Source of the DNA: Deltaproteobacteria bacterium
Lineage (GTDB): Bacteria; Desulfobacterota; Binatia; HRBIN30; CADEER01
Length of the DNA stretch: 64,000 nt
Assembly: GCA_029262455.1 (NCBI GenBank)
Contig: JAJCZJ010000020.1
Coordinates: 325,078 to 389,077 of the forward strand
Direction of reading: 5' to 3'
Shown in pieces: positions 18,857-60,456 of this stretch (its first letter is position 1; each line of letters opens with the position of its first letter). The translations under genes and the position numbers were made by a program. The notes beneath the pieces were generated by a model. It did no database searches, was not told the origin of the DNA, and was given only the letters and a program-made list of their open reading frames with translations.

Positions 18857-21008
18857 GAACCCCGACGCGAGTTCAGATGCCGTTCGGAACAACCGCCACG
18901 CAACCTTGCGATGGTGGTTGGTCGTCGGGCTCGGGATCGGGGGATTCCTCGCTGCGTTTATCGTCTTCCGCCTACTCGACCAGAGCCTTCCGCTCACCGG
19001 CCCGCCGGCGAACGGCGCCGACCTAAAGTCCTATTTCATTCCGGCGATGGCGTTCATGCGACAGGCCTTCTTCGACGGCGAGCTGCCCCTGTGGAACCCG
19101 TACCAACTCGCCGGGTCTCCGTTCATTGCGCTCCATGGACCAGGCGCGCTCTACCCGTTGCTCTTCATCTTCACTCCACTACCGCCCCACGTCGCGCTGA
19201 TCGCACACGCCCTGCTCCACTACGTTCTCGCTGGACTGTTCAGCGCGCTGTACGCGCGAAAGATCGGTCTACCAAGTGCCGCATGTCTCGTGGCTGGACT
19301 CGCGTACGTGGGCTCGCCGCCACTCGTCGACGCCGCATTCAACACGGGATACCTGTCGACCTTCGTCTGGCTTCCGGCGATCCTGCTGGCAGTCGAGAGC
19401 ATCTGCGACACGCCCGGGCGTCGGACGGCGGTTCTCCTAGCCGGAGTCCTGGCGCTCTGCTTTTTGGCCGGACACCCCCAGGCGTTCGTTTATTCCGTCT
19501 TCATCGCCGCACCCTACGGCGCCCTGCGCCTGTTGACCTCCCAACCTTCTGCAAAGTGGGTGTCGATTCTCGTCTGGAGTACGACAGCAGGCTTGCTGGC
19601 GGCTGGTCTGATGGCGATACAGATCCTACCGACCGCCAGCCACGCCAACACCGCCGCCAGAAACCTCGACGGTCTCAACTATCATCTCGCACGATGGTCG
19701 GCCCTGCGATGGCATCATCTACCTAGCCTTCTCACCGGCCAAGACGGCCCCCCGCTCGGTCTACCATTTCTCTTCGCGCCCCTAACCATCGCTGCGCTCT
19801 TCTCGCGCCAACGCGTACTCGCGCTGACTCTGCTGTCGATCTTTCTATTGTCCTTCGACTACATGACCGGCGTCAGCGCACTCGGGTCAAAACTCTACTA
19901 TGCCTTGCCTGCGGGGAATCTGTTTCGTCTCCCCCAACGAATGGCATTTGCGTACCACGCGCTTGCCGCTGCATTAATGGCGCTCGGCGTGAGCGCCGTA
20001 ATCTCCGGAGCCAAACGCTGGGGATCTACCCTCGCGATCATCGCGGCAATCACGATCCCGGCGATCCTCGCACTCGATCTCTTCGTCCGTAATCCACTTC
20101 GTTTTCGCTACGACCTCTGGCGCGCCCCCTGGTCGGTCCCCGGAGCCGCAGAAACCTCACCCCTATTGAACGCAGCCGGCTTCGACCGACTTTTCATCCA
20201 GAATCGGGCCAAAGTAACAATACCGCGAAAATTTGGAATGTTGCATCGAGCGTTCATCCTGCCGGACTACGATCCGTTGCTCCCCGGCATCTACCGCCCG
20301 TTCTTTCAGATCCCGCCGAAAGGGCTGTGGCACGGTACCCTCGACATTGTCGATCCGTGGCGCGGCAGACCGCTAAATTCTGTGCGCAAGCCGATTCTGC
20401 AACCCCCAACACGCCTCGATTTACTCAGCGTTCGCTACTACGTGGATGCTCGCCACGGAGCCGCTAGCGACCCGAAAAAACTAGGCCCGGCCTCCCAACT
20501 CGCGGACATCCACGTCGGGCAACACGCTGTCTACAAACGTGAGACGGCAGTGCCCCGCACGTACATCGTGAAGGACATCGTCGGTGTGAATTCGGAGGCA
20601 GATGCCTTGGCGAGAGTGCACGCCCTCGACTTCGACCCTGCTCGGACGGCCATTGTCGTCGGTCCCCCTGCACAATCCTCAGAAACTCCGGCGGCGAACG
20701 AAGGGGCGCGCATCACGTCTTTTCGCCGCAACGACGTTCGCATCGAAGCATCCTGCAATTCGGATTGCCTGCTCGTCCTGACCGACCTGTACGACCCCGA
20801 TTGGTCAGTTCAGGTCGACGGGCAACCTACAACGTTGCTGCGCACCAACTACTTGGTTCGTGGCGTCCGGCTCAACCCTGGAACCCACACCGTAGATTTC
20901 CACTATCGCGCCCCCGCCTTCTGGACCGGTGCTGCGATCACGCTTGCGGCGCTGCTGGTGTCAGGCTACCTCGCCCTGTCCGGAAGAGAACATAAGCGAG
21001 TCGGCTAG
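18846..21008 (+). CDS. YfhO-like polytopic membrane glycosyltransferase, paralog 2
   Basis: GTG start overlaps the upstream stop by 11 nt. Long blocks identical to paralog 1, for example a 34-nt identical DNA stretch at about 17209-17242 and about 19351-19384. Confidence 0.7.
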   Translation: MSPENPDASSDAVRNNRHATLRWWLVVGLGIGGFLAAFIVFRLLDQSLPLTGPPANGADLKSYFIPAMAFMRQAFFDGELPLWNPYQLAGSPFIALHGPGALYPLLFIFTPLPPHVALIAHALLHYVLAGLFSALYARKIGLPSAACLVAGLAYVGSPPLVDAAFNTGYLSTFVWLPAILLAVESICDTPGRRTAVLLAGVLALCFLAGHPQAFVYSVFIAAPYGALRLLTSQPSAKWVSILVWSTTAGLLAAGLMAIQILPTASHANTAARNLDGLNYHLARWSALRWHHLPSLLTGQDGPPLGLPFLFAPLTIAALFSRQRVLALTLLSIFLLSFDYMTGVSALGSKLYYALPAGNLFRLPQRMAFAYHALAAALMALGVSAVISGAKRWGSTLAIIAAITIPAILALDLFVRNPLRFRYDLWRAPWSVPGAAETSPLLNAAGFDRLFIQNRAKVTIPRKFGMLHRAFILPDYDPLLPGIYRPFFQIPPKGLWHGTLDIVDPWRGRPLNSVRKPILQPPTRLDLLSVRYYVDARHGAASDPKKLGPASQLADIHVGQHAVYKRETAVPRTYIVKDIVGVNSEADALARVHALDFDPARTAIVVGPPAQSSETPAANEGARITSFRRNDVRIEASCNSDCLLVLTDLYDPDWSVQVDGQPTTLLRTNYLVRGVRLNPGTHTVDFHYRAPAFWTGAAITLAALLVSGYLALSGREHKRVG

Positions 21009-21114
21009 GCGAAACGACCTTCCGCCGTCCAGCGCAGGATCGGCTCTTGCGAGCCGAACAATCGCCGAGGCCCCCGACGCACGTAACCCCTGGAAGCGTG
21101 AAATCATCCAGACT

Positions 21115-21939
21115 ATGTTATCTCGGATGAGCCAAGGAGCGACATTCCCAACTCCCCCCCTCTCTGTGGTAATACCGGCCTTCGAGGAGTCCAGTCGCAT
21201 CGGCCCTCCACTCGCAAAAATTTGCCAGTATATTGCACAGAACCACCCGGGCACTGAGATCATCATCGTCGACGACGGCAGTCGCGACAGTACCTCGGAA
21301 ACGGTTGAGAAGCTCGCCCCGGATCTGCCATGCCCGGTCACCCTGTTGCGCTATGAGAAAAATCGCGGCAAGGGCTACGCGCTGCGCGTAGGTTTCGCGC
21401 ACAGCAGCGGGCAGCGCGTCCTGTTTACCGATTGCGATCTTTCGACGCCGATCGAGGAACTCGATCGGCTTCTCCCCGCGATCGAGGATGGCGCCGATGT
21501 GGTGATCGGCTCGCGGAAGATGACCGGTGCCGACATCGTCGTTCATCAAAAATGGTACCGCGAGCGGCTCGGCAAAGTCTTTACGTTTCTCGTCAACATC
21601 GCAATCGCCAACGTCAGCGACGCAACGTGCGGTTTCAAGCTCTTCGACGGTGACGTTGGCCGGAAACTCTTCGCACTCGGTCAAATCGACGACTGGAGTT
21701 TCGACGCCGAAATCCTCTTCCTAGCCAGCCGACAGAACCATCGCATCGTCGAGATTCCCGTAACCTGGCGCGATGCCGAGGGCACAAAAGTCCGCCTTGG
21801 CCGCGACGCGCTCGCGGCCCTGACTGGGCTGATGCGCATTCGATGGCTGGCGCTGCGCGGCGTCTATCGGGAGGCTGCTTCTCCGAGCCTGGACTCCTCC
21901 GTCGAAGTCAAGATGCTGCCTGACCGGCTCATATCGTGA
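21115..21939 (+). CDS. GT2 polyprenol-phosphate glycosyltransferase (DPM1/GtrB/CsbB/ALG5-like)
   Basis: ORF 20929..21939 trimmed to ATG 21115. LSVVIPAFEE, IIIVDDGSRDST, NRGKGYAL, FTDCDLSTP, DAEILFLA. Confidence 0.8.
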   Translation: MLSRMSQGATFPTPPLSVVIPAFEESSRIGPPLAKICQYIAQNHPGTEIIIVDDGSRDSTSETVEKLAPDLPCPVTLLRYEKNRGKGYALRVGFAHSSGQRVLFTDCDLSTPIEELDRLLPAIEDGADVVIGSRKMTGADIVVHQKWYRERLGKVFTFLVNIAIANVSDATCGFKLFDGDVGRKLFALGQIDDWSFDAEILFLASRQNHRIVEIPVTWRDAEGTKVRLGRDALAALTGLMRIRWLALRGVYREAASPSLDSSVEVKMLPDRLIS

Positions 21940-24116
21940 GCACAGGTAGTTCCCCGCAACTCGTCAAGCAGACAAACGTCGATTCCTGGCAGTGGTGGAC
22001 ACTCGTAGGGCTGGGGCTCGGCGCCTTCCTCGCGGTATTCATAGCACTTCGGCTCACGGACCCCACATTGCCTCCAAGCGCGCCGCCGGCCCGCGGTTCC
22101 GACCTCAAGTCCTACTTCCTCCCCTCGATGGTGTTCATTCACCAATCACTGATGGATCTCGAGCTGCCACTCTGGAACCCGTTCCAGCTCGCCGGCTCTC
22201 CGTTCATCGCCAGCCATCACCCCGGCGCCCTCTATCCCCTGCTCGTCGTGTTCGCACCGCTACCTCCACATCTGGCGCTCGCCGCCCACGCACTCCTCCA
22301 CTACGCACTCGCCGGTATATTCACTGCCCTATACGCACGAAAAATCGGCGCCCAGGCCGGTGCTTGCCTCGCTGCCGGAGTTGCCTACATGGGTTGCGCA
22401 CCAATGGTGAACGCCGCCTTCAACACCGCCTATCTGTCGACCTTCATCTGGCTGCCGGCGATTCTGCTGGCCATCGAGCACATGTTTCAGAAACCCGGCC
22501 GCCGGGCAGCCGTGATATTGGCCGCCACACTTTCCCTCAGCTTTCTGGCCGCGCATGCGCAGGCATTCGTTTACTCGGTCGAAGTTGGCGCACTCTACGG
22601 AATCGCACGACTGGCCGCGTCGCAGCCAAGAGCGCAATGGCCACGCATCGCGGGTTGGAGTATCGCTGCCGGATTGATCGCCGCGGGGCTGGTCGCGATC
22701 CAGTTGCTTCCCGCAGTCGAACACGCATCCGCCGGCGGGCGCAATCTCGAAGGCGTCAACTACGGTATCGCTCGTTGGCCTGGTCTCTATTGGCAGCAGG
22801 TCCCTCGAATCCTCTCCGGACTCGACCATCGAGGCACAGGTGTCCCCTTCCTTTTCGTCCCCTTAGCCATCGCGGCAATTTTTTCCCGCTGGCGGACACT
22901 TGCCCTCACGTTCCTCGTAATCTTCTTTCTCTGCATCGATTTCATGGCCGGATCCACCGGATTCGGGTCAAAGTTGTACTACGCTCTTCCCGCCGGAAAT
23001 TTGTTTCGCTTTTCAACCCGAATGGGATTCGCATATCAGCTCGTCGCCGCTGTCATCATGGGCCTCGGCACCAGTGCGGTCATCACGCGATCACAACGAT
23101 GGGGCCCAAAAGCAGCAGGCGCCGTCGGCATCGCACTTCCTGCCCTCCTCGCTCTCGATCTCTTCTGGCGCAATCCCCTGCCCTACCGATTCGACCTGTG
23201 GAGCGACCCGTGGGACGTGAGCGCCGTCAACGCCACCGCCGATCTAGCGAAAACCACCGAATACGACAGACTCTTCATTCAGAATCACGCGTGGGTGACC
23301 GTTCCAACGAAAGTCGGGATGCTGCACAGTGCCTTCGTCGTCCCGGACTATGACCCGCTACTGCCGGGGGCTTACAAGCACATGTTCGGGTCTGGTTCGA
23401 AAGTTGTCTGGCAAGGGCGCCTCGATATGGTCGATCCATGGCCTGGCGAGAGAAAGAAAAACCACAAGCCCCCCGTCCTCCAACCACCCACGCGACTCGA
23501 TCTGCTCAGTGTTCGGTACTACGTCGACGCCCGCACAATCGCGAGGCTAGGTCCTACCAAGCTGGGATCCGTTTTAGACGCCAAACAGATCCGCGAGGGA
23601 CCACCGCCGGTCTACGAACGCACGACTGCGTTGCCGCGTACCTACATCGTCAAGAATGTGATTGCCGTCGCGTCCGAGGACGATGCTCTGAAGCACGTGC
23701 ACGAGCTCGCCTTCGACCCGACCGAAACGGCTATCGTCGTCGGGAACACCACCCTAGACACGCAGCCGCTGACTGCAGACGATCAGGCTCACATCACGTC
23801 GTTCCACCGCAACGACGTATCCATCGAAGCATCCTGCACTTCGGAATGTTTGCTCGTCCTAACCGATCTCTTCGATCCCGATTGGACTGTGCATGTAAAC
23901 GACCAGCCGCACGAAATATTGCGCACGAACTATCTGGTACGTGGCGTCCGCTTGGAAGCGGGTACCCATCGCGTCGATTTCCACTACCGCGCGCGAGAGT
24001 TCTGGAAAGGCGCAATCATCACTCTCGCAGCACTCCTGGTTTCGGCGTACCTGCTGGCAACGGGCGACCCGACTCTCCACCGCCCTGCGACCAACACCGC
24101 TCGCAGTACCGGCTGA
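21936..24116 (+). CDS. YfhO-like polytopic membrane glycosyltransferase, paralog 3
   Basis: GTGA start/stop overlap with the GT2 gene. Same conserved N- and C-terminal blocks as paralogs 1 and 2. Confidence 0.7.
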   Translation: MSTGSSPQLVKQTNVDSWQWWTLVGLGLGAFLAVFIALRLTDPTLPPSAPPARGSDLKSYFLPSMVFIHQSLMDLELPLWNPFQLAGSPFIASHHPGALYPLLVVFAPLPPHLALAAHALLHYALAGIFTALYARKIGAQAGACLAAGVAYMGCAPMVNAAFNTAYLSTFIWLPAILLAIEHMFQKPGRRAAVILAATLSLSFLAAHAQAFVYSVEVGALYGIARLAASQPRAQWPRIAGWSIAAGLIAAGLVAIQLLPAVEHASAGGRNLEGVNYGIARWPGLYWQQVPRILSGLDHRGTGVPFLFVPLAIAAIFSRWRTLALTFLVIFFLCIDFMAGSTGFGSKLYYALPAGNLFRFSTRMGFAYQLVAAVIMGLGTSAVITRSQRWGPKAAGAVGIALPALLALDLFWRNPLPYRFDLWSDPWDVSAVNATADLAKTTEYDRLFIQNHAWVTVPTKVGMLHSAFVVPDYDPLLPGAYKHMFGSGSKVVWQGRLDMVDPWPGERKKNHKPPVLQPPTRLDLLSVRYYVDARTIARLGPTKLGSVLDAKQIREGPPPVYERTTALPRTYIVKNVIAVASEDDALKHVHELAFDPTETAIVVGNTTLDTQPLTADDQAHITSFHRNDVSIEASCTSECLLVLTDLFDPDWTVHVNDQPHEILRTNYLVRGVRLEAGTHRVDFHYRAREFWKGAIITLAALLVSAYLLATGDPTLHRPATNTARSTG

Positions 24117-53226: not shown

Positions 53227-54837
53227 CTAGTGGTCCCGAGCTTTCCCAGCCGAACCCGGTCGCCCTTGGGCAAACCAGGCGTGCTCGGGACGAGCGAGGA
53301 TCTCTGCAATCAGCGTATCGATCGCCGACGCCGCCACACCCTCACCGCGCGCTGCCGCATGCTCGGCGATCTCACGCGCTTGCGGCAGTAGCTCCTGATA
53401 AAATCGTTCCGCAACCTCGTACATCCCGTGCCACTGAGTGTAGTCCGGCGCCATCATCGCCGCACCCATGCGCGCGCGACGGCCTTCGTGGTGCCAGAGG
53501 TAGAACCAGGTCCATTCGATCTCCTCATCAAAGGGAGTCGCCGTGATCAGATCGTTCGTCTTGAGCGCCTTCATGATCGACTGACCTGGCGCTGCAAACT
53601 TCTCGTTGTAGAGAGTCACGAGATCGTCATACTGCCGGTAAAACCCGCTCGTGTGGTCGTCCGTGTGGCAGTGCGAGCAAACTTCGCGCATCCGTCCGCG
53701 CTTATCGGCGGCGCTATCGGTCACCAGCTCACGCCGCTTCTGTGGGTCGAGCTCACGTACAATCGCCCCATCTTTATCGGTGTCCATCTGCAGACTCAGA
53801 GGCGGTCGGTTGTTCCAAGAGATCCGCTCGCGCGGATCATGCGTGATCTTGCCACCGTTTCGTGAGTGTCCAGACATGTGGCAGGTAGCGCAGGTCGGTG
53901 CCTGCGCGTAGTCGCGGCCGAGCACCCAGCTGTCGCCGTCCAGGTCCATGTCTTCGCGCAGGTCGCGGTAGGCGACACCGTGCTTCGACTCCTCATAGAT
54001 CTCCTTTTGCGGATGGTCGGGTCCGAGGTGGCATTTGCCGCAATTCTCCGGCTGTCGCGCACGTCGCGGCGAAAAATCGTGACGGCTGTGGCAGGCGGAA
54101 CACGAGCCGCGTGATCCGTCGAGGTTCAACCGGCCAATTCCCGTATTCGGCCAAGTCCCGGTGTCGAGGAGCGGACGGCCATTGTCGTCGCGCAGCACGC
54201 GAGCAACCGCGTCGAGGTCCGTTGGCTTGCCGTCAACGCCAGGCTTCAAGTCCACAAACGTGATCGACTCCCCGGTGGTCGCTCGCAGTGCGACCTTGCT
54301 CCCGTGGCATTGCTGGCAGCCAGAGAGGGCTGCGGCCATACCGTCGACTTCATCTCCTCGCGCAATTGCTTCGGGCGAATGTGGTGAAAAAGCCACGCGA
54401 GAGCCCTCGACCGTCTCGGCGAGAAAGTTGTCCAACGAGGCAAGGATGTTGCCGGCCGCAGCGTGATGACTCCGCTCGAACTCGTCGGCCACCTGCGGGT
54501 GACATCCCGCACAATCGCGCGGCGTTACGATCGTCGCTATGTCTGCGCCGTAATGGGAGAACGCATCCGCCTCATCGCGTTCGGCTCGGTGACAGTCTAG
54601 GCAGGCGACACCGACCTCCGCGTGCTTGCTGCTGCGCCAGTGCGTCACGATGCCGGGATGTGCTTGACTGTGGCAGGCTACACAGCCCTCGCTACTCGAA
54701 GCCACCGAAATGATCGGCTCGCGCATCCCACCCTCTACTTCGCGTCGTACGATCTCCATGCGTTGCACGAAGAACAGAGAACCGACGAAGATCAGGGCCG
54801 CTGCGATCAGCACCAGTCGTTTGGCGTTCAAATCCAT
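53227..54837 (-). CDS. Membrane-anchored octaheme cytochrome c, hydroxylamine-oxidoreductase (HAO) family-like
   Basis: Eight CxxCH motifs: CVACH, CLDCH, CAGCH, CQQCH, CSACH, CGKCH, CATCH, CSHCH. N-terminal TM LVLIAAALIFVGSLFFV. HAO-like WRSSKHAEVGVACLDCH, PTCATCHM, LWHHEGRRARMGAAMMAPDYTQWHG. Confidence 0.65.
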   Translation of the reverse strand: MDLNAKRLVLIAAALIFVGSLFFVQRMEIVRREVEGGMREPIISVASSSEGCVACHSQAHPGIVTHWRSSKHAEVGVACLDCHRAERDEADAFSHYGADIATIVTPRDCAGCHPQVADEFERSHHAAAGNILASLDNFLAETVEGSRVAFSPHSPEAIARGDEVDGMAAALSGCQQCHGSKVALRATTGESITFVDLKPGVDGKPTDLDAVARVLRDDNGRPLLDTGTWPNTGIGRLNLDGSRGSCSACHSRHDFSPRRARQPENCGKCHLGPDHPQKEIYEESKHGVAYRDLREDMDLDGDSWVLGRDYAQAPTCATCHMSGHSRNGGKITHDPRERISWNNRPPLSLQMDTDKDGAIVRELDPQKRRELVTDSAADKRGRMREVCSHCHTDDHTSGFYRQYDDLVTLYNEKFAAPGQSIMKALKTNDLITATPFDEEIEWTWFYLWHHEGRRARMGAAMMAPDYTQWHGMYEVAERFYQELLPQAREIAEHAAARGEGVAASAIDTLIAEILARPEHAWFAQGRPGSAGKARDH

Positions 54838-54859
54838 GGAATCCCCCGTGGTCTTCGCC

Positions 54860-55906
54860 TCAGTGGGCGACGGCCGCCTCCCAAATCATGAGAACCGAGA
54901 TCAGGACAACGGCCAACAGACCAATCCAAACACTCGCTTCGGAAAATCTCGTTTTTCGACGAATCAAGTCGTCGATAAAAGGCCAACAGAACATCGTGAA
55001 GACCACGAAGCCCATGCTGAGAATGGCCACGGTTCCGGAAAAAAGTTTCAGCCAACGAAACGCCACATAGAAGAACCACTCGGGTTTGATCACTTCGGGA
55101 GTCGTCAACGGATCGGCCAAAGGACCCATCGTGGCCGGGAACACAGTCGCCAACGCGCTCAGGAGAACCATCAACGACAGTCCGATGGTCAGCTCCATAT
55201 AGACGTGATCGGGGAACAGATTGAACGTTCCACCTCCGTCCGGCTCCTCCTCGAACGAGAGCTCGCTGACACCCTGCAACCGGACGATCGCGATGTGCAC
55301 AACGATCAACAGAGTCAGAATGATCGGCAACACCGCTCCGTGAAGGACAAAGAAGCGCGCCAGGGTATGGCTATTGTACGAATCGCCTCCGAGCAGCATG
55401 CGCTTGACGGTCGACCCGATCAGGGGAACGCCATCGGCGATGTTGGCGCCGACCGTCGCCCCCCAGTAGCTCAGCTGCTCATAGACGAGGCTGTAGCCGG
55501 TGAAGGCAATCGTCAGAGTGCAGACGAGCATCGACATACCGATCATCCAGTTGATCTCGCGCGGCTTGCGATAAGCCCCGGAAAAAAACACCCGCATCTG
55601 ATGGAGCACGATCGCGGCGATCATGAAGGTTGCGCCCCACTTGTGCACGCTCCGGACGTACCAACCAAATGGGACTTCGTCGGTGACATAGGCCACCGAC
55701 TGGTACGCGCGCGACGGCGACGGTTCGTAGTAAAAGGCGAGCAACAACCCCGTCACGATCTGAATCGCGTAGAGGTACGCCGGCGTACCTCCGAGGGCGA
55801 ACCACCATCGCTTCATGTGATTCGGCACCGGCTCGTTGGTGAGCCAACGTAAATCCTCACCGCTCACATCGAGTCGTTCCCCGAACCAATGGCGCACCGA
55901 CATCAT
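54860..55906 (-). CDS. Cytochrome b of a Rieske/cyt b complex (b6 plus subunit IV-like fusion)
   Basis: WFALGGTPAYLYAIQIVTGLLLAFYY, VRSVHKWGATFMIAAIVLHQMRVFFSGAY, YWGATVGANI, RFFVLHGAVLP. Confidence 0.85.
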   Translation of the reverse strand: MMSVRHWFGERLDVSGEDLRWLTNEPVPNHMKRWWFALGGTPAYLYAIQIVTGLLLAFYYEPSPSRAYQSVAYVTDEVPFGWYVRSVHKWGATFMIAAIVLHQMRVFFSGAYRKPREINWMIGMSMLVCTLTIAFTGYSLVYEQLSYWGATVGANIADGVPLIGSTVKRMLLGGDSYNSHTLARFFVLHGAVLPIILTLLIVVHIAIVRLQGVSELSFEEEPDGGGTFNLFPDHVYMELTIGLSLMVLLSALATVFPATMGPLADPLTTPEVIKPEWFFYVAFRWLKLFSGTVAILSMGFVVFTMFCWPFIDDLIRRKTRFSEASVWIGLLAVVLISVLMIWEAAVAH

Positions 55907-55915
55907 GCTCTGCCC

Positions 55916-56455
55916 CTAGGTCCGAAGCGCGCCCGTAGTGGACGGGATCAAGTCGGCTTCCGCCAACTCGATGAAAAGAAGGTTTCCTTCGACCTTTAGA
56001 TTGTACGGGATCAGATCGAGCCCCTGCTCCCCTGGCGGGCCACCCGTACCCTTGCCGGTCGAATCAAACACACCATTGTGACAGGGACAGAAATAGCGTT
56101 GGTCCCTACTCTGCCAATGAACCTTGCACCCGAGATGCGGGCAGACGTCCGAAAGCGCAGTGAATGTCACCGCGTCGACGTCATCGGCCTGGCGCGCAAT
56201 CACGACAGTCGCGCCGCTCGGTGTCGTATACTGAATCGTGCCCTCGACTCCCAGCCGGTCCAAGTCGCCGACATAGAGCCATTGCCCGAGGTTGCGCTGC
56301 GGCGGATAGAGGAACCTCGCGGCCAGTGAGGCAAACCCACCATAGGCCGTGACTAGGCTGACGAACAAACCACCCGACAAGAGCCTGGCAAAAAAGGCGC
56401 GACGCGGCGGTTGCTCCGGAATCTTCTTCCCCGATGACTCCTGCAGTATTGCCAT
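55916..56455 (-). CDS. Rieske [2Fe-2S] protein
   Basis: CPHLGCKVHW ... CPCHNGVF. N-terminal PRRAFFARLL followed by a TM segment. Confidence 0.85.
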   Translation of the reverse strand: MAILQESSGKKIPEQPPRRAFFARLLSGGLFVSLVTAYGGFASLAARFLYPPQRNLGQWLYVGDLDRLGVEGTIQYTTPSGATVVIARQADDVDAVTFTALSDVCPHLGCKVHWQSRDQRYFCPCHNGVFDSTGKGTGGPPGEQGLDLIPYNLKVEGNLLFIELAEADLIPSTTGALRT

Positions 56456-56458
56456 GAC

Positions 56459-56908
56459 CTATGCGACAGCCGACGACGCGTTTGCCAGACGCTGTCCAAG
56501 AAAACGCAGGCAATCGGTTTCGCTAACCAGGCCCACGATCTCGTCCCCCGCCGCACCGCCGACGACAGGCAAACAACCGATGCGCTTCTCCAACATCGTC
56601 GCGACAGCATGCCGAAGCGGCGTCGTCTCGCGCGCGGTTTCGACATGCCTGGTCATCACGTGGCGAACTTCAATCTTTGAAAGCCATTCACGTTGTGGCC
56701 CCGGCTCGAACTCAAGCACTGACGAGATCGCAGCGCGGAATAAATCTCGCTGCGAAAGGATTCCGGCAAGGCGGTTGTTGACCACTACAGGCATATGGCG
56801 GATTCGGCCAAGCCGCATGATGTCATCGGCCAGATCGAGGGCGTCATCCACCTTTAGAGTGACGACCTCGCCCTGCATGATGTCTCTCAGAATCGGTTCA
56901 TCAGACAT
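56459..56908 (-). CDS. CBS-domain pair protein
   Basis: ILRDIMQGEVVTLKVDD...IRHMPVV...LAGILSQRDL and a second CBS repeat. Lies 4 nt upstream of the Rieske gene. Confidence 0.75.
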   Translation of the reverse strand: MSDEPILRDIMQGEVVTLKVDDALDLADDIMRLGRIRHMPVVVNNRLAGILSQRDLFRAAISSVLEFEPGPQREWLSKIEVRHVMTRHVETARETTPLRHAVATMLEKRIGCLPVVGGAAGDEIVGLVSETDCLRFLGQRLANASSAVA

Positions 56909-57393
56909 GACAGTGACATCAGCAATTGTCGTACCGTCATTCCGCTGGTCCGTACGAACAGCGAACGAGAACAGGGATTCTCAAAATCACTGCTGGCAGC
57001 CGCTGGGTTTCTCACGTATGGGAAACCTGAATTCCAAATTCTCTGACCTGCGCGGTGGGTGGTACGACAAATCTAGTAGGGTCAGTGCGAGTCGTGCGCC
57101 GGCATCGAGGCAAAGGTATTTCGCCAAGTCGATCAAGCTTCTCTACGCCGCTTACTTCGGCGCGCTGAACACCTATTCAGCAGCAGCGCTCCAGTCGATC
57201 CAGAAGAAGGTGCCGATCTACGTACCCGACTTGGCGTTCGGCGTGCTAGGCGTCAGCCCTACCGAAGTAGCCCGACGCACTCGTCCGCGCAGGTGAACAA
57301 CCCGTCCGACGAATAACGTCGGCCGATGCCGCCCTCAGATCGTTGGTAACATTTTCTTGCTGCAATCCAGCAATCCTGGTCTACTTCGAACTG

Positions 57394-58962
57394 ATGAAAC
57401 AGACTCACCTCGTATTCCTCGCGCTGGGCCTCAGCACCCTATGCACGCACCCGATCGCGGCGCAGATCGAACCCATTGGCAACAGTATTCAAGTCGGTAC
57501 CAACGACGGCACCAACCAATTTCTGCCAACGGTCGCCGCGGCGCCGAACGGCAACTTTGTGGTTGCTTGGAGTCGTGCATTTGACTTCCCATTCATGGGG
57601 CAGATGATCCCGGTGCGCCAGCTACAAGCGCGCGCCTTCGACAGCGCCGGAGCGCCAGTGGGCTTCGAATTCAACATTCGTTCGGGGTACCAAACCGCGT
57701 TCATTCCAGACGCCACCGCGATCGATGGCGGATTCGTTGTGGCTTGGGAAAAACAGTTTGACTACGGCGTCCACGCGATAAAGCTCGACGCGTCGGGAAG
57801 CGCGCCCACCGGAGCGGAGTTTCTCGTCGACTCCACGGTTGTTTACAACAACCCGCCCGGCGAACCCGGCGACACCCTCAACCCGGAACAACCTGTCGTC
57901 GCTGCGACTGCCAACGGCGGTTTCGTCGTCGTGTGGTCCCGCGTCTACCTCGAGTGGCCCCCCACTGGAATCAGAGAGGGGCGTGGTGTGCACGGACGTC
58001 TCTATGACAGCAACGGCACGCCGGGTTCGAAGTTTCAGGTAAACACCACCCAACCAATGGAACACGCAGCCGCGGGACGCGACGTCGCCTCGGATCCCTC
58101 TGGAAACTTCGTTGCCGTCTGGGACTTTGAGAACGACGACGCAATCTTCGGGCAACGGTTTAACTCGAACGGGACACCGGTCGGCACCGAATTCTCAGTG
58201 AGCGGTCCGCCGGACACTCGCACCGACCCATCGACCTGCATGCACTCTGACTCCAGCTTCGTCGTCGAGTGGACGGCAACGGACGGCTCGGGGAACCCAC
58301 GCATTCAAGCCCAACGCTTCGACAGCGGTGGCACTTCCCAAGGCACAGATTTTCGAGTCAGCTTACCTTCGGCGACCTCAGCGCAGTACGGAGAGATTGT
58401 TTGCACCGGCGATGGCGGCTTCACCATTGCCTGGGACGAGCCCAGCGGCTTCTTCGGCCGTCGTTACGACGCCGCGGGCGATCCAGTCGGGACACGGGTA
58501 TCGTTACATGCGTCCGGACAGTCGCTTGACTCGCGTCCGCGCCTCGCGGCGCAGACGTTTCCCAATCTACTGATGGTGCATGACAGCAGCGCTATTACCG
58601 CTCAGCGAATGCGGGCGTCAGGAGAGGGATTCCCGGTCGACAGCTTCAAATGCTACAAGGCTATCGACCGAGAGGCGCCGCCGTTTCAGTCGCTGAGTGT
58701 AACGCTGGCGGACCAGTTCGCCATCAACGACGGCACTTTCAAGGTCGTCAAACCGCGCCTCCTCTGCAACCCCGTGGCAGTGGACAGCGAGGGGATTAAC
58801 CGACCTGACGAACACCAGGTTTGCTATAAGATCCGCGGACCAAGAATAGACCGCGACGAGAGACCCCTCATCTCCGTGAGCAGCGACTTCGGGGTTTCGC
58901 AGCTGGAGATCGTCAGACCATTGTACTTGTGCATACCTTCTCTCAAGACGGTACTTCCCTAG
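57394..58962 (+). CDS. Secreted beta-propeller-like repeat protein with a 4-Cys C-terminal domain
   Basis: ORF 57343..58962 trimmed to ATG 57394. Signal MKQTHLVFLALGLSTLCTHPIAAQ. Repeats G.EF.V......P.VA....G.FVV.W....QRF...G. Tail: FKCYKA...LLCNP...QVCYKI...LYLCIP. Confidence 0.7.
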   Translation: MKQTHLVFLALGLSTLCTHPIAAQIEPIGNSIQVGTNDGTNQFLPTVAAAPNGNFVVAWSRAFDFPFMGQMIPVRQLQARAFDSAGAPVGFEFNIRSGYQTAFIPDATAIDGGFVVAWEKQFDYGVHAIKLDASGSAPTGAEFLVDSTVVYNNPPGEPGDTLNPEQPVVAATANGGFVVVWSRVYLEWPPTGIREGRGVHGRLYDSNGTPGSKFQVNTTQPMEHAAAGRDVASDPSGNFVAVWDFENDDAIFGQRFNSNGTPVGTEFSVSGPPDTRTDPSTCMHSDSSFVVEWTATDGSGNPRIQAQRFDSGGTSQGTDFRVSLPSATSAQYGEIVCTGDGGFTIAWDEPSGFFGRRYDAAGDPVGTRVSLHASGQSLDSRPRLAAQTFPNLLMVHDSSAITAQRMRASGEGFPVDSFKCYKAIDREAPPFQSLSVTLADQFAINDGTFKVVKPRLLCNPVAVDSEGINRPDEHQVCYKIRGPRIDRDERPLISVSSDFGVSQLEIVRPLYLCIPSLKTVLP

Positions 58963-59031: not shown

Positions 59032-60456
59032 ATGGGCGACGAGATCAATCAGCGCTACTACGACGCCGATGACTTCAGCGACTTTCGACACAATCTCGAT
59101 GAGGAAACAGCGCTACTCGGCAATCTCTTTCAACAAGACGACTTCAGCAAGCGCGGAGACATGGCAGGCTTCGAGCTCGAAGCCTGGCTGATCGACGACC
59201 AGGGGGATCCATTCCCGGACAACGAAAGTTACCTGAAGGCCCTCGACAACCCACTCGTCGTTCCCGAGCTCGCTAGGTTCAACGTCGAATTGAACGGAAG
59301 CCCGACTGCCCTCACTGGCCGGGTGTTTTCACGCTTGCAAGATGAACTCGATGCAACCTGGCGATCCTGCCGCAAAGCAGCGGACCGATTGAAGTGTCAC
59401 CTCCTGACAATCGGTATCCTGCCGACCGTCAAGGAAGCCATGTTGTCGGACGAGTACATGTCGCACATGGTCCGCTATCAGACGTTGAATGATCGGGTCA
59501 TGGCGCTGCGCGACGGAAAGCCGCTCGAGCTCAACATCGAAGGCACGCCCAACCTCCTCGCGACACATTCCGACGTCATGCTCGAGGCCGCCGCCACGTC
59601 GTTTCAGGTCCACCTGCAATGCCTGCCCGACCGGGCGGTGCGCGACTTCAACGCGTCGCTGATCGCGTCTGCACCGATGGTCGCCGTCTCGGCGAATTCA
59701 CCCTTTCTGTTCGGACACGCGCTCTGGGACGAAACCCGCATCCCGCTATTTGAACAGGCAGTTGACCTCGGCGAGCGATTCCCGTCCAGAGTCAGTTTCG
59801 GCAAGAGCTATGTAAACGAGTCGCTCTTCGAAATCTTCGAAGAGAACCAGCGCGAGCATCCGATCCTGATTCCGGCGGTCCAGGAGCAACCGGCGAACCA
59901 ATTCGCTCACGTGCGCTTCCACAATGGGACACTGTGGCGTTGGAATCGCCCCTTGATCGGCTTCGATTTCGACGGCCAGGTGCATCTGCGGATCGAACAC
60001 CGGGTCATTCCAGCCGGCCCCACGATCAAGGATTGTATCGCCAATTGCGCCTTCTACTTTGGTTTGGTGCGCGGCTGGGGCCTGGACAAGGAGCCACTGG
60101 AGAACCACATCCCCTTCGAAGTCGCGCGCGACAACTTCTACAACGCCGCCCGATACGGTTTGGGCGCTCGGGTCCGATGGTCGCGCGATGGCACCGAGAG
60201 TGAAGTCTCGATTCGATCCCTGATCATCGACGAACTATTGCCAATCGCTCGCGCCGGCCTTCAGTCGAGATCAATTCCGGACTCGGAGATCGACGACTAC
60301 CTGGGAGTGATCGCAGCGCGCGCCGAATCGTCACAGAACGGCGCGGCCTGGCAACGGCGTTGGATCGAAGAGAACGGTCCAGACTTCAACGGTCTGGTCC
60401 TCGCATACCGCGAACAACAGAACCGGGGTTGCCCGGTTCACGAATGGACGCTTTAA
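59032..60456 (+). CDS. Glutamate-cysteine ligase family 2 (carboxylate-amine ligase)-like protein
   Basis: GFELEAWLID, RFNVELNGSP, ATSFQVHLQ, VSANSPFLFG. Confidence 0.65.
   Translation: MGDEINQRYYDADDFSDFRHNLDEETALLGNLFQQDDFSKRGDMAGFELEAWLIDDQGDPFPDNESYLKALDNPLVVPELARFNVELNGSPTALTGRVFSRLQDELDATWRSCRKAADRLKCHLLTIGILPTVKEAMLSDEYMSHMVRYQTLNDRVMALRDGKPLELNIEGTPNLLATHSDVMLEAAATSFQVHLQCLPDRAVRDFNASLIASAPMVAVSANSPFLFGHALWDETRIPLFEQAVDLGERFPSRVSFGKSYVNESLFEIFEENQREHPILIPAVQEQPANQFAHVRFHNGTLWRWNRPLIGFDFDGQVHLRIEHRVIPAGPTIKDCIANCAFYFGLVRGWGLDKEPLENHIPFEVARDNFYNAARYGLGARVRWSRDGTESEVSIRSLIIDELLPIARAGLQSRSIPDSEIDDYLGVIAARAESSQNGAAWQRRWIEENGPDFNGLVLAYREQQNRGCPVHEWTL

What the first reader, a model, noticed from the sequence alone, without database searches (positions are those of the whole stretch)
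53227..56908. Rieske/cytochrome b module co-operonic with an HAO-like octaheme cytochrome c and a CBS protein
SEEN: gene order on the minus strand is CBS, Rieske, cytochrome b, then an 8 x CxxCH cytochrome with an N-terminal TM anchor, with gaps of 3, 9 and 22 nt. No cytochrome c1/f-type gene is present. ESTABLISHED: the HAO family has eight hemes. Anammox bacteria encode Rieske/cyt b clusters that include HAO-like octaheme proteins, and related proteins catalyse hydroxylamine, hydrazine or nitrite/NO redox reactions. Oxidative HAOs carry a Tyr that cross-links the P460 heme, and reductive ones lack it. INFERENCE: a quinol-linked N-oxide (or other) oxidoreductase supercomplex in which the octaheme replaces cytochrome c1.
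Basis: partly seen in the sequence, partly recalled or inferred. Interest (0 to 1): 0.6.

Follow-up and report, generated by a model that had tools for sequence, protein, structure and literature searches.

The report
Rieske–cytochrome b–octaheme nitrite-reductase operon
A three-gene operon joins a complex-III-type quinol oxidase (Rieske protein plus cytochrome b) to a membrane-anchored eight-heme enzyme of the reductive, nitrite-reducing branch of the hydroxylamine-oxidoreductase family. The same module occurs in hundreds of bacterial species, often directly next to nitrate reductase, so it is a real respiratory device already foreshadowed in the literature, not an anammox or nitrifier gene.

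Summary
On the minus strand lie a CBS-pair gene, a Rieske gene, a b6-type cytochrome b (fused to a subunit-IV-like part) and a 536-aa protein with eight CxxCH motifs and an N-terminal membrane anchor. The gaps are 3, 9 and 22 nt, and the 64-kb window has no c1/f-type gene.

Rieske–cyt b–octaheme synteny held in all 80 related genome loci examined (>10 phyla) wherever upstream DNA was present. The CBS gene is not conserved. In 36 of 78 loci napA follows the octaheme directly, usually with a NapB-like tetraheme. The window itself has no napA.

Best reading: a menaquinol:nitrite oxidoreductase in which the octaheme replaces cytochrome c1, making nitrite reduction Q-cycle coupled. Precedents are Caldithrix abyssi (nap–Rieske/cyt b–εHao) and the anammox R/b-3 complex. 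Verdict: a new member of a known kind, biochemically untested, of moderate interest.

The parts
53227..54837 (-). HAO-family octaheme cytochrome c, 536 aa, of the reductive (εHao-like) type. It has an uncleaved N-terminal TM anchor (residues 7-25, window 54763-54819) and eight CxxCH motifs. The catalytic Asp274-His275 pair corresponds to NeHAO D267/H268 (window 54013-54018). Arg344 sits at the NeHAO Tyr334 position (53806-53808). Trp469 sits at the NeHAO cross-link Tyr467 position (53431-53433), with Met461 eight residues upstream (53455-53457).
   Evidence: The εHao signature rule comes from PMC8940962.
54860..55906 (-). Cytochrome b, 348 aa: a b6-like N-terminal four-helix part fused to a subunit-IV-like C-terminal part. 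The four heme-ligand His are His88, 102, 189 and 204. The Qo motif is PEWF at residues 275-278. There is no Cys for heme ci (Ala in 'WFALGG').
   Evidence: Pfam PF00033/PF13631/PF00032. PDB best hits are cytochrome b6 at 1e-50, with the alignment shown. NCBIfam matches are b6-type. Motif positions are and C-terminal TM segments.
55916..56455 (-). Rieske [2Fe-2S] protein, 179 aa. It has a twin-arginine motif RRAFF (residues 18-22) followed by a hydrophobic anchor. Cluster box I is CPHLGC (105-110) and box II is CPCHNGVF (123-130). Gly and Phe replace the Ser and Tyr that raise the redox potential in high-potential Rieske proteins.
   Evidence: Pfam PF00355. PDB best hits are b6f-type Rieske proteins. 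The Ser/Tyr potential rule is as described in PMC12954380.
56459..56908 (-). Stand-alone CBS-pair protein, 149 aa, whose stop codon lies 3 nt before the Rieske start. It is probably co-transcribed here, but it is a lineage-specific accessory and not part of the conserved module.
   Evidence: Pfam shows two CBS domains. It is absent next to Rieske in most of the 80 loci. CBS-pair ORFs occur within a few kb in about 6 loci.
56909..57342 (.). A 434-bp intergenic region between the CBS gene and the divergently oriented gene at 57343. It is the only sizeable non-coding gap upstream of the four genes, so it is the likely promoter/regulatory region. This is inferred only.
   Evidence: ORF map and sequence. 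The simple sigma-70 scan found no consensus promoter.

Best explanation
The Rieske, cytochrome b and octaheme genes encode one membrane complex: a complex-III-type quinol oxidase whose c-type subunit is itself a terminal reductase. A low-potential quinol, probably menaquinol, is oxidised at the Qo site of the b6-type cytochrome b. One electron goes to a low-potential Rieske cluster and from there into the heme chain of the membrane-anchored HAO-family octaheme, which sits where cytochrome c1/f would be. The chain ends at the five-coordinate heme 4, where nitrite is reduced. I favour six-electron reduction to ammonium, as in εHao and IhOCC, roughly 60:40 over one-electron reduction to NO, as in Kuenenia HAOr. 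The second electron returns through hemes bL and bH to the Qi site (Q cycle), so periplasmic nitrite reduction becomes proton-motive. In about half of the related genomes the same module probably also supplies NapA through an adjacent NapB-like tetraheme. The window carries the stand-alone version, preceded by a CBS-pair protein that may act as an adenylate or energy sensor.

Shown: gene order, domain identities, catalytic and cofactor motifs, absence of the cross-link Tyr, conserved synteny, correlated divergence of the subunits, and napA adjacency in relatives.

Inferred: the physical complex, the electron path, the quinol type, the substrate and product, and the Q cycle.
For: HAO-family membership is supported by sequence and fold.

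The reductive type is supported by a gapless alignment, NeHAO 'GLAHVNPGGWTY467' against window 'GAAMMAPDYTQW469'. It keeps Gly, Ala and Pro in register and puts Trp469 at the cross-link position, with Met461 eight residues upstream. That is the εHao signature attributed to Haase et al. 2017 in PMC8940962. Both residues are invariant in the clade. Cross-link-free HAOs are reductases (PMC8042395).

Catalytic Asp274-His275 is conserved. Arg344 replaces NeHAO Tyr334, and only in this clade and its nearest relatives.

Rieske-cyt b-octaheme synteny is present in every one of 80 loci from more than 10 phyla where DNA allows, and in the TM-anchored sister clades P0286 and P0125. A soluble relative lacks Rieske/cyt b.

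Octaheme and cyt b distances correlate (r=0.59, Mantel p<=0.001).

The TM anchor has invariant residues across phyla (F17, S20, L21, V24, Q25, E28, R31, E35). That is unlike a cleavable signal peptide and suggests specific helix packing.

No c1/f gene exists in the window.

The Rieske box II 'CPCH-x-G-x-F' lacks the Ser and Tyr H-bond donors in all 72 loci, which predicts a low-potential cluster suited to menaquinol (rule).

The nitrogen link comes from relatives. A bona fide napA (NCBIfam NF010055, 944 bits against a cut-off of 904) lies directly downstream of the octaheme in 36 of 78 loci, followed in 28 loci by a NapB-like tetraheme. A 47%-identical soluble relative sits beside napD and napA. 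The published precedent is Caldithrix abyssi, with nap plus Rieske/cyt b plus εHao.
Against: No experiment exists for this clade.

The window itself has no napA or any other nitrogen-cycle gene in 64 kb. About half of the related loci also lack napA, so the substrate is inferred from relatives.

Rieske/cyt b complexes are dimers and HAO-family enzymes are trimers, and the stoichiometry of a joint complex is unexplained.

HAO-type hemes are often lower in potential than Rieske clusters. HAOr spans +305 to -315 mV.

Ammonium and NO as products cannot be separated from sequence. Arg344 has no counterpart in any characterised HAO-family enzyme among the solved structures aligned here.

Sequence alignment of the Tyr loop is ambiguous by 2-3 residues. 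MAFFT put NeHAO Tyr467 opposite Gln468, and an invariant Tyr466 lies three residues upstream of Trp469.
Confidence: 0.6

Rival explanations
1. The architecture is the same, but the enzyme is a one-electron, NO-forming nitrite reductase like Kuenenia HAOr/Kuste4574. It would supply NO to Nor or other enzymes and stand in for NirS/NirK in partial denitrifiers.
For: HAOr, also cross-link-free and with the Asp-His pair, makes NO. Kuste4574 in the anammox R/b-3 complex is proposed to do the same. A Phycisphaerae genome survey suggests hao-like octahemes replace NirK/NirS in genomes that have nar and nor. A globin-like gene is inserted within the cluster in three Planctomycetota loci, and heme-copper oxidase/NOR-superfamily genes lie nearby in three loci.
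Confidence: 0.22
2. The octaheme is mainly an electron-distributing cytochrome, a multiheme substitute for c1. It would pass electrons from the Rieske protein to soluble periplasmic reductases such as NapAB and would not be the terminal enzyme itself.
For: napA and a tetraheme cytochrome follow the octaheme in 36 and 28 loci respectively, and these clusters show no NapC/NapGH-type quinol dehydrogenase in the DNA held. Multiheme c subunits replacing c1 are described for anammox R/b complexes and discussed for Caldithrix.
Against: The catalytic Asp-His pair, Arg344 and the whole heme-4 region are invariant across phyla at about 65-70% overall identity. That level of constraint is not expected for a mere wire. 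Thirty-eight loci and the window encode no partner reductase nearby. The two roles are not mutually exclusive.
Confidence: 0.1
3. The enzyme acts on a non-nitrogen substrate (sulfite, tetrathionate, peroxide, metals or extracellular acceptors), or serves only in detoxification.
For: The window has no nitrogen-cycle gene. Multiheme cytochromes are catalytically promiscuous (PMC9250108). The function of IhOCC in a sulfur-respiring archaeon is unclear in vivo.
Against: All characterised HAO-family members act on N-oxides or N-hydrides. napA is the only frequently co-located catalytic gene. There is no similarity to OTR or MccA.
Confidence: 0.05
4. An oxidative hydroxylamine or hydrazine dehydrogenase feeds electrons into the quinone pool, as in nitrifiers or anammox bacteria. 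This is what the automatic annotation 'hydroxylamine oxidoreductase' implies.
For: Public pipelines name these proteins hydroxylamine dehydrogenase/oxidoreductase. An invariant Tyr466 lies three residues from the cross-link position.
Against: Trp, not Tyr, is at the cross-link position under the published εHao rule. Tyr466 is conserved throughout the radiation that carries the εHao Trp/Met signature. No amo or hzs genes are present in the window or in any related locus. A Rieske/cyt b complex oxidises quinol and does not reduce quinone with high-potential electrons. The host is a 60%-GC non-anammox lineage.
Confidence: 0.03

Closest known systems
Caldithrix abyssi nap-Rieske/cyt b-εHao cluster (Cabys_2564-2556; Kublanov et al. 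2017, PMC5317091)
   Same: The gene order is the same: Rieske (Cabys_2558), cytochrome b (Cabys_2557), HAO-family octaheme (Cabys_2556). There is no monoheme c1 gene nearby. The cluster is adjacent to nap, as in 36 of 78 relatives of the window module. The authors proposed that the Rieske/cyt b complex donates electrons to the octaheme and makes the pathway electrogenic.
   Different: In Caldithrix the module follows napMADGH and the Hao is described as periplasmic. In the window clade the octaheme has a conserved TM anchor, napA (where present) lies downstream with a NapB-like tetraheme, and the window has no nap at all.
Anammox Rieske/cyt b complex R/b-3 (Kuenenia stuttgartiensis Kuste4569-4574)
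   Same: A b6f-like Rieske/cytochrome b complex encoded together with an HAO-like octaheme that lacks the Tyr cross-link and is proposed to reduce nitrite.
εHao of Campylobacterota (Haase et al. 2017, cited)
   Same: A cross-link-free HAO-family octaheme with Trp at the Tyr position and Met eight residues upstream, a conserved Asp-His pair, and genomic association with nap in various lineages. Nitrite and hydroxylamine reductase activity has been demonstrated in vitro.
   Different: As far as I recall, the characterised εHao proteins are not encoded with Rieske/cyt b. The window clade is TM-anchored, has Arg344 in the distal pocket, and is always linked to Rieske/cyt b. No authentic εHao sequence was available for a direct identity or tree comparison.
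IhOCC (Igni_0955, PDB 4QO5) of Ignicoccus hospitalis
   Different: Identity is only about 31%. IhOCC has Asp-Val instead of Asp-His, Phe instead of Arg344, and lacks the 'WHHEGRR' helix motif. It is archaeal. I did not check its gene neighbourhood for a Rieske/cyt b complex.
Canonical cytochrome bc1 / b6f complexes
   Same: Rieske CxHxGC/CxCH boxes, four b-heme His ligands, a PEW(Y/F) Qo motif, and b6 plus subunit-IV architecture.
   Different: There is no cytochrome c1 or f and no heme-ci Cys. b6 and subunit IV are fused in one 348-aa protein. The c-type subunit is a catalytic octaheme.

Membership tests
HAO family of octaheme cytochromes c (PF13447) | Eight c-type heme-binding motifs, all CxxCH, in the family's spacing | tested here: met
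   Eight CxxCH motifs lie at residues 52, 79, 109, 174, 246, 266, 316 and 387. They use all 16 Cys and all are invariant in a 59-sequence family alignment. Pfam PF13447 scores 2e-18.
HAO family of octaheme cytochromes c (PF13447) | HAO fold, including the C-terminal oligomerisation helices | tested here: met
HAO family of octaheme cytochromes c (PF13447) | Distal Asp-His pair at the catalytic heme 4 (NeHAO D267/H268) | tested here: met
   Asp274-His275 in 'GPDHP' aligns with NeHAO 'GVDH' and is invariant in the clade.
HAO family of octaheme cytochromes c (PF13447) | Homotrimer with a 24-heme ring and a five-coordinate heme 4 | not testable with these tools
   Only a heme-free monomer model could be made.
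Oxidative HAO/HOX/HDH subgroup (P460 enzymes) | Tyr that cross-links heme 4 of the neighbouring subunit (NeHAO Tyr467) | tested here: not met
   The NeHAO sequence was verified as identical to 4fas_A, with Tyr467 in 'WTYTEGW'. A gapless alignment keeping Gly, Ala and Pro in register places window Trp469 there. This matches the εHao rule of Trp plus Met eight residues upstream, here Met461. MAFFT places Gln468 there. No alignment places a Tyr at that position.
Oxidative HAO/HOX/HDH subgroup (P460 enzymes) | Distal-pocket Tyr (NeHAO Tyr334) | tested here: not met
   It is replaced by Arg344, with 'SWNNRP' aligned to 'RWANYP'.
εHao-type reductive HAO | Trp at the cross-link position and a conserved Met eight residues before it (Haase 2017, as relayed in PMC8940962) | tested here: met
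   Trp469 and Met461 are both invariant in 17 clade members and widespread in the surrounding radiation.
εHao-type reductive HAO | Nitrite and hydroxylamine reductase activity | not testable with these tools
   This needs purified protein.
εHao-type reductive HAO | Phylogenetic grouping with authentic Campylobacterota εHao | not tested
   No authentic εHao sequence was available. The neighbour-joining tree contains only anonymous representatives plus IhOCC and NeHAO.
ONR / NrfA nitrite reductases | CxxCK motif giving a Lys-ligated catalytic heme, and the ONR/NrfA fold | tested here: not met
OTR / MccA | Fold and sequence similarity to octaheme tetrathionate or sulfite reductases | tested here: not met
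   There is no OTR hit, and MccA has E 2.4. Sequence searches gave no hits.
Rieske/cytochrome b complexes (bc1/b6f superfamily) | Rieske cluster boxes CxHxGC and CxCH with a membrane anchor and Tat signal | tested here: met
   CPHLGC at 105-110, CPCHNGVF at 123-130 and RRAFF at 18-22. Box I is identical in 72 loci.
Rieske/cytochrome b complexes (bc1/b6f superfamily) | Cytochrome b with four His ligands for hemes bL/bH and a PEWY-type Qo motif | tested here: met
   His88, 102, 189 and 204 align with the b6 ligands. PEWF lies at 275-278. Across related loci the motif is PEWF in 57 and PEWY in 9.
Rieske/cytochrome b complexes (bc1/b6f superfamily) | A cytochrome c1, f or di-heme c subunit | tested here: not met
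   No other CxxCH-bearing ORF exists in the window. The octaheme is the only c-type cytochrome in the module in all loci.
Anammox R/b-3-type complex (Kuste4569-4574) | NAD(P) oxidoreductase subunit, split b6 plus five-helix subunit IV, an additional multiheme c, and a high-potential Rieske with Ser/Tyr | tested here: not met
   The module has three genes only, a fused 348-aa cytochrome b, and Gly/Phe in place of the Rieske Ser/Tyr, compared with the description in PMC12954380.

The most novel reading that the evidence does not exclude
The membrane-anchored, Arg344-bearing HAO-like clade with its dedicated low-potential Rieske/cyt b partner would be a distinct, widespread class of respiratory enzyme: a 'complex III-terminal reductase' fusion. 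It would make periplasmic nitrite reduction (and, where napA follows, nitrate reduction) directly Q-cycle-coupled. It occurs in at least 583 species-level genomes of Acidobacteriota, Planctomycetota, Gemmatimonadota, Myxococcota, Binatia, Chloroflexota and others. If so, it represents a large pool of nitrite-reducing capacity, ammonifying or NO-forming, that current nrfA/onr/nirS/nirK-based surveys do not count and that hao-based surveys misassign to nitrification.
Probability: 0.35. Interest if true: 0.7.

Novelty: new member of a known kind. Interest (0 to 1): 0.45.

Why it matters
Genes of this clade are routinely annotated 'hydroxylamine oxidoreductase/dehydrogenase', so they can be read as nitrification or anammox markers in metagenomes. 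The sequence evidence says they are reductases.

If the module works as proposed, nitrite reduction in many soil, sediment and marine lineages is coupled to a Q cycle. That would make it more energy-conserving than the NrfAH or soluble εHao routes, which the literature treats as non-electrogenic.

A recent global census of nitrate ammonifiers counted only nrfA and onr and treated HAO/IhOCC-type sequences as false positives. A Phycisphaerae survey reported that no Phycisphaerales genome contained a bc1 complex, although Phycisphaeraceae loci here carry Rieske/cyt b beside the octaheme.

The minimal three-gene form is also a simpler model than the six-gene anammox R/b-3 complex for studying how a Rieske cluster hands electrons to an HAO-type heme chain.

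Tried and rejected
1. I first suspected that the invariant Tyr466 ('APDYTQW') was the cross-linking Tyr ('WTYTEGW' in NeHAO). I rejected this. The gapless alignment that keeps Gly, Ala and Pro in register, together with the published εHao rule, puts Trp469 at that site. Tyr466 is also conserved throughout the radiation that carries the εHao Trp/Met signature.
2. The first AlphaFold run used 17 near-identical sequences and gave pLDDT 57, so it was discarded. A 59-sequence diverse alignment gave 91.8.
3. My first neighbour clustering used greedy selection of the longest ORFs. It was misled by antisense ORFs in high-GC DNA and missed napA. A tblastn with the napA of a relative's locus revealed it. 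A second, stop-to-stop clustering was noisy but found no further conserved neighbour.
4. The locus labelled 'Candidatus Kuenenia sp.' (L067) looked like an anammox link. Its 55-57% GC argues for a misbinned contig.
5. Exact-match look-ups returned only a 4.7-kb Logan contig, so the source organism could not be named that way. Lnt homologues gave only a coarse placement.
6. The promoter/terminator scan was uninformative.
7. The IhOCC structure paper (doi 10.1111/febs.13870) is not in the library.
8. Literature searches found no paper describing this widespread three-gene module beyond Caldithrix and anammox.

Full report
**Observation.**
- CBS-pair protein, 56459-56908
- Rieske protein, 55916-56455
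- cytochrome b, 54860-55906
- octaheme protein, 53227-54837

The sequence shows gaps of 3, 9 and 22 nt, and Pfam confirms each identity. The 536-aa protein has eight CxxCH motifs that use all 16 of its cysteines, where 0.025 motifs are expected from its own composition. It also has one N-terminal hydrophobic helix. Six-frame counting finds no other clustered CxxCH motifs in the 64-kb window. My ORF map shows no other c-type cytochrome, so no c1/f gene is present.

**What the parts are: Rieske and cytochrome b.**
- The Rieske protein has a twin-arginine motif (RRAFF) and cluster boxes CPHLGC and CPCHNGVF. It is closest to b6f-type Rieske proteins.
- The cytochrome b N-terminal part matches cytochrome b6 at 1e-50. 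All four heme-ligand His are present, and there is no heme-ci Cys. A subunit-IV-like part with a PEWF Qo motif is fused to it.

**What the parts are: the octaheme.**
- It is an HAO-family protein. By sequence the order of PDB hits is IhOCC (1.7e-40), Kuenenia HAOr (5e-28), then NeHAO/HDH/HOX (about 1e-14). NrfA and ONR score only 0.004 to 0.4.
- A first AlphaFold model from 17 near-identical sequences was poor (pLDDT 57). A model from 59 diverse sequences was good (pLDDT 91.8, pTM 0.86).
- All 11 significant Foldseek hits are HAO family. ONR is at 0.058 or worse, MccA at 2.4, and OTR is absent.

**The tyrosine test.** I checked the NeHAO sequence against 4fas_A. It is identical over 546 residues, and Tyr467 sits in 'WTYTEGW'.
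- The window protein reads 'RMGAAMMAPDYTQWHG'. A gapless alignment with NeHAO 'HVGLAHVNPGGWTYTEG' keeps Gly, Ala and Pro in register and places Trp469 opposite Tyr467 and Met461 opposite His459.
[quoted passage not shown] 2017).
- Both residues are invariant in the clade and common in the surrounding radiation.
- MAFFT shifts the loop by two residues and places Gln468 there. A 2025 reconstruction describes reductive HAOs as having His at the key site, and His470 is adjacent. No alignment puts a Tyr at the site.
- The nearby invariant Tyr466 is conserved throughout the radiation that carries this signature, so it is not diagnostic.
- The catalytic Asp-His pair is kept (Asp274/His275). NeHAO Tyr334 is replaced by Arg344, a residue specific to this clade and its nearest relatives. 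IhOCC has Asp-Val and Phe at these positions.
- Cross-link-free HAOs that have been characterised are reductases (PMC8042395).

**Distribution and synteny.**
- The protein family is large and tightly conserved. A word-indexed search returned 7,988 clusters at E<=1e-5, with the top 120 at 66-78% identity. Names given by sources span Acidobacteria, Deltaproteobacteria, Planctomycetota, Anaerolineae/Ardenticatenia and Sumerlaeota.
The 80 best loci come from more than ten phyla.
- In all 80, cytochrome b lies immediately upstream of the octaheme and Rieske upstream of that, wherever the contig extends far enough. CBS is rarely present.
- Octaheme and cytochrome b distances are correlated (r=0.59, Mantel p<=0.001).
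- At 50% clustering the clade collapses to one representative. Its neighbours in a neighbour-joining tree are other membrane-anchored forms, with IhOCC at about 31% and NeHAO at about 24% identity.
- Two anchored sister clades are also preceded by Rieske/cyt b. A soluble 47%-identical relative is not, and it lies beside napD and napA.
- The anchor helix carries residues invariant across phyla, which argues for specific packing in a complex.
- The Rieske box II is CPCH-x-G-x-F in all 72 loci. The Ser and Tyr that raise Rieske potentials by about 130 and 65 mV are missing (rule summarised in PMC12954380). This predicts a low-potential, menaquinol-type complex.

**Nitrogen link.**
- The window itself carries no nitrogen-cycle gene. 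Its other genes are glycosyltransferases, YfhO-like proteins, sulfotransferases, an aldehyde dehydrogenase and similar.
- My first neighbour clustering was misled by antisense ORFs.
- A tblastn with the NapA of the soluble relative's locus then showed a napA directly downstream of the octaheme, on the same strand, in 36 of 78 loci with enough DNA. The gap ranges from -14 to 325 nt.
- The L008 example passes the NCBIfam NapA equivalog cut-off (944 against 904 bits) and has the expected Pfam domains.
- In 28 loci it is followed by a roughly 200-aa tetraheme with two NapB-like halves.
- Thirty-eight loci with at least 2.5 kb of downstream DNA have no napA there. The window has none anywhere in its 64 kb.
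- Other recurrent neighbours are weak: an alginate-export-type porin (about 12-14 loci), NarL/LuxR-type response regulators (about 11) and CBS-pair proteins (6).

**Host.** GC content is about 60% throughout. The window's Lnt has its best named hits in 'Deltaproteobacteria bacterium' (58%) and Candidatus Binatia (51%) MAGs. The best GTDB octaheme matches are of the same kind. This is not an anammox bacterium. The one locus labelled Kuenenia has 55-57% GC and is probably misbinned.

**Mechanism.** The steps below are inferred:
- The three proteins form a menaquinol:nitrite oxidoreductase.
- The Rieske/cyt b pair runs a Q cycle.
- The anchored octaheme takes the place of cytochrome c1/f and reduces nitrite at heme 4.
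- Where napA and the tetraheme follow, the same complex probably also feeds nitrate reduction.

I favour ammonium as the product. The reasons are the εHao signature, the IhOCC-like fold and the nap-hao pattern of ammonifiers. NO formation, as in HAOr, cannot be excluded.

Three problems remain open. Rieske/cyt b complexes are dimers while HAO-family enzymes are trimers. The potentials of the octaheme hemes are unknown. The role of Arg344 is unknown.

The CBS-pair protein is probably co-transcribed here but is lineage-specific. In one relative (L020) a CBS pair is fused to a GCS2-type ligase like the gene at 59032-60456 of the window. The CBS protein may therefore belong functionally to that neighbour, or it may act as a sensor.

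**Comparison with what is known.**
- The closest published arrangement is Caldithrix abyssi, where Rieske, cytochrome b and εHao genes follow the nap cluster. The authors proposed electron transfer from Rieske/cyt b to the octaheme.
- The anammox R/b-3 complex (Kuste4569-4574) is analogous but has six genes. These include a NAD(P) oxidoreductase, a split b6 and subunit IV, an extra multiheme cytochrome, a high-potential Rieske and an HAOr-like octaheme.
- Hypersaline-mat and Phycisphaerae surveys have seen hao-like genes of this kind without noting the Rieske/cyt b link.
- A global ammonifier census excluded such proteins.
- I found no paper in the library describing the breadth of this module or its frequent napA linkage. 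The library is incomplete, and reviews I recall but could not read may cover it (Simon and Klotz 2013; Kartal et al. 2013; ten Brink et al. 2013).

**Verdict.** This is a new member of a known kind. It is moderately interesting because it is widespread, consistently mis-annotated, biochemically untested, and offers a simple system for asking whether periplasmic nitrite reduction can be Q-cycle coupled.

Noticed in passing
L034:4024-4482, L029:5475-5927, L048:6610-6990: In three Planctomycetota loci a roughly 150-aa globin-like ORF (weak Pfam Globin hit, E 1.9e-4) lies inside the cluster. In L034 and L029 it sits between cytochrome b and the octaheme. In L048 it follows the napA-tetraheme pair. 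A heme-based NO or O2 binder in this position might hint at NO handling.
   Followed up: partly
L063:5261-5956 (also L061): A different roughly 230-aa ORF with no Pfam match fills the roughly 830-nt gap between cytochrome b and the octaheme in two Planctomycetes loci.
   Followed up: no
window 59032-60456 and 56459-56908; L020:1822-3735: The window has a GCS2-family carboxylate-amine ligase gene 2.1 kb from the CBS-pair gene. In L020 (Marinacidobacterales MAG) a GCS2-like domain and a CBS pair are fused in one 637-aa protein just upstream of the Rieske gene. This suggests the CBS protein may be functionally tied to the ligase rather than to the respiratory module.
   Followed up: partly
L039:10514-11845, L006:2689-4149 and about 10 other loci: An outer-membrane beta-barrel of the 'alginate export' family (PF13372) recurs within 3-5 kb of the module in about 12-14 of 80 loci, on either side and either strand. 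It might be a porin for nitrate or nitrite, but this was not tested.
   Followed up: partly
L067 (contig JAYTAK010001279.1, labelled Candidatus Kuenenia sp.): This 5.8-kb contig carrying the module has 55-57% GC, far above what I recall for Kuenenia (about 41%). It is probably a binning error rather than evidence that anammox bacteria carry this clade.
   Followed up: partly
L016, L042 (Phycisphaeraceae MAGs): [quoted passage not shown] KEGG-style bc1 definitions apparently miss this c1-less module.
   Followed up: no
window 53455-53457 (Met461 of the octaheme): Met461 is nearly invariant across the whole IhOCC/εHao-like radiation and aligns with His459 of NeHAO and the equivalent His of KsHOX. 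If that His is a heme axial ligand in the oxidative enzymes, the reductive enzymes would have one His/Met-ligated, higher-potential heme. I could not verify the ligand assignment.
   Followed up: no
window 16733-24116: Three paralogous roughly 710-725-aa YfhO-like membrane proteins lie in tandem, interrupted by a family-2 glycosyltransferase. They sit within a long stretch (about 16.7-49 kb) rich in glycosyltransferases (GT11, GlcNAc-type, GT92-like), sulfotransferases, an MBOAT, a 2OG-Fe(II) oxygenase and two PqqD-domain proteins. This looks like a large glycan or peptide-modification island.
   Followed up: no
window 57343-58962: A 539-aa protein with an N-terminal signal-like segment and a weak C-terminal DUF7450 match is encoded divergently from the CBS-Rieske-cyt b-octaheme genes. 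Its function is unknown.
   Followed up: no
L019:11447-13150, L010, L012: A heme-copper oxidase subunit-I-family gene (PF00115; oxidase or NO reductase not distinguished) lies within about 5 kb of the module in three loci.
   Followed up: no
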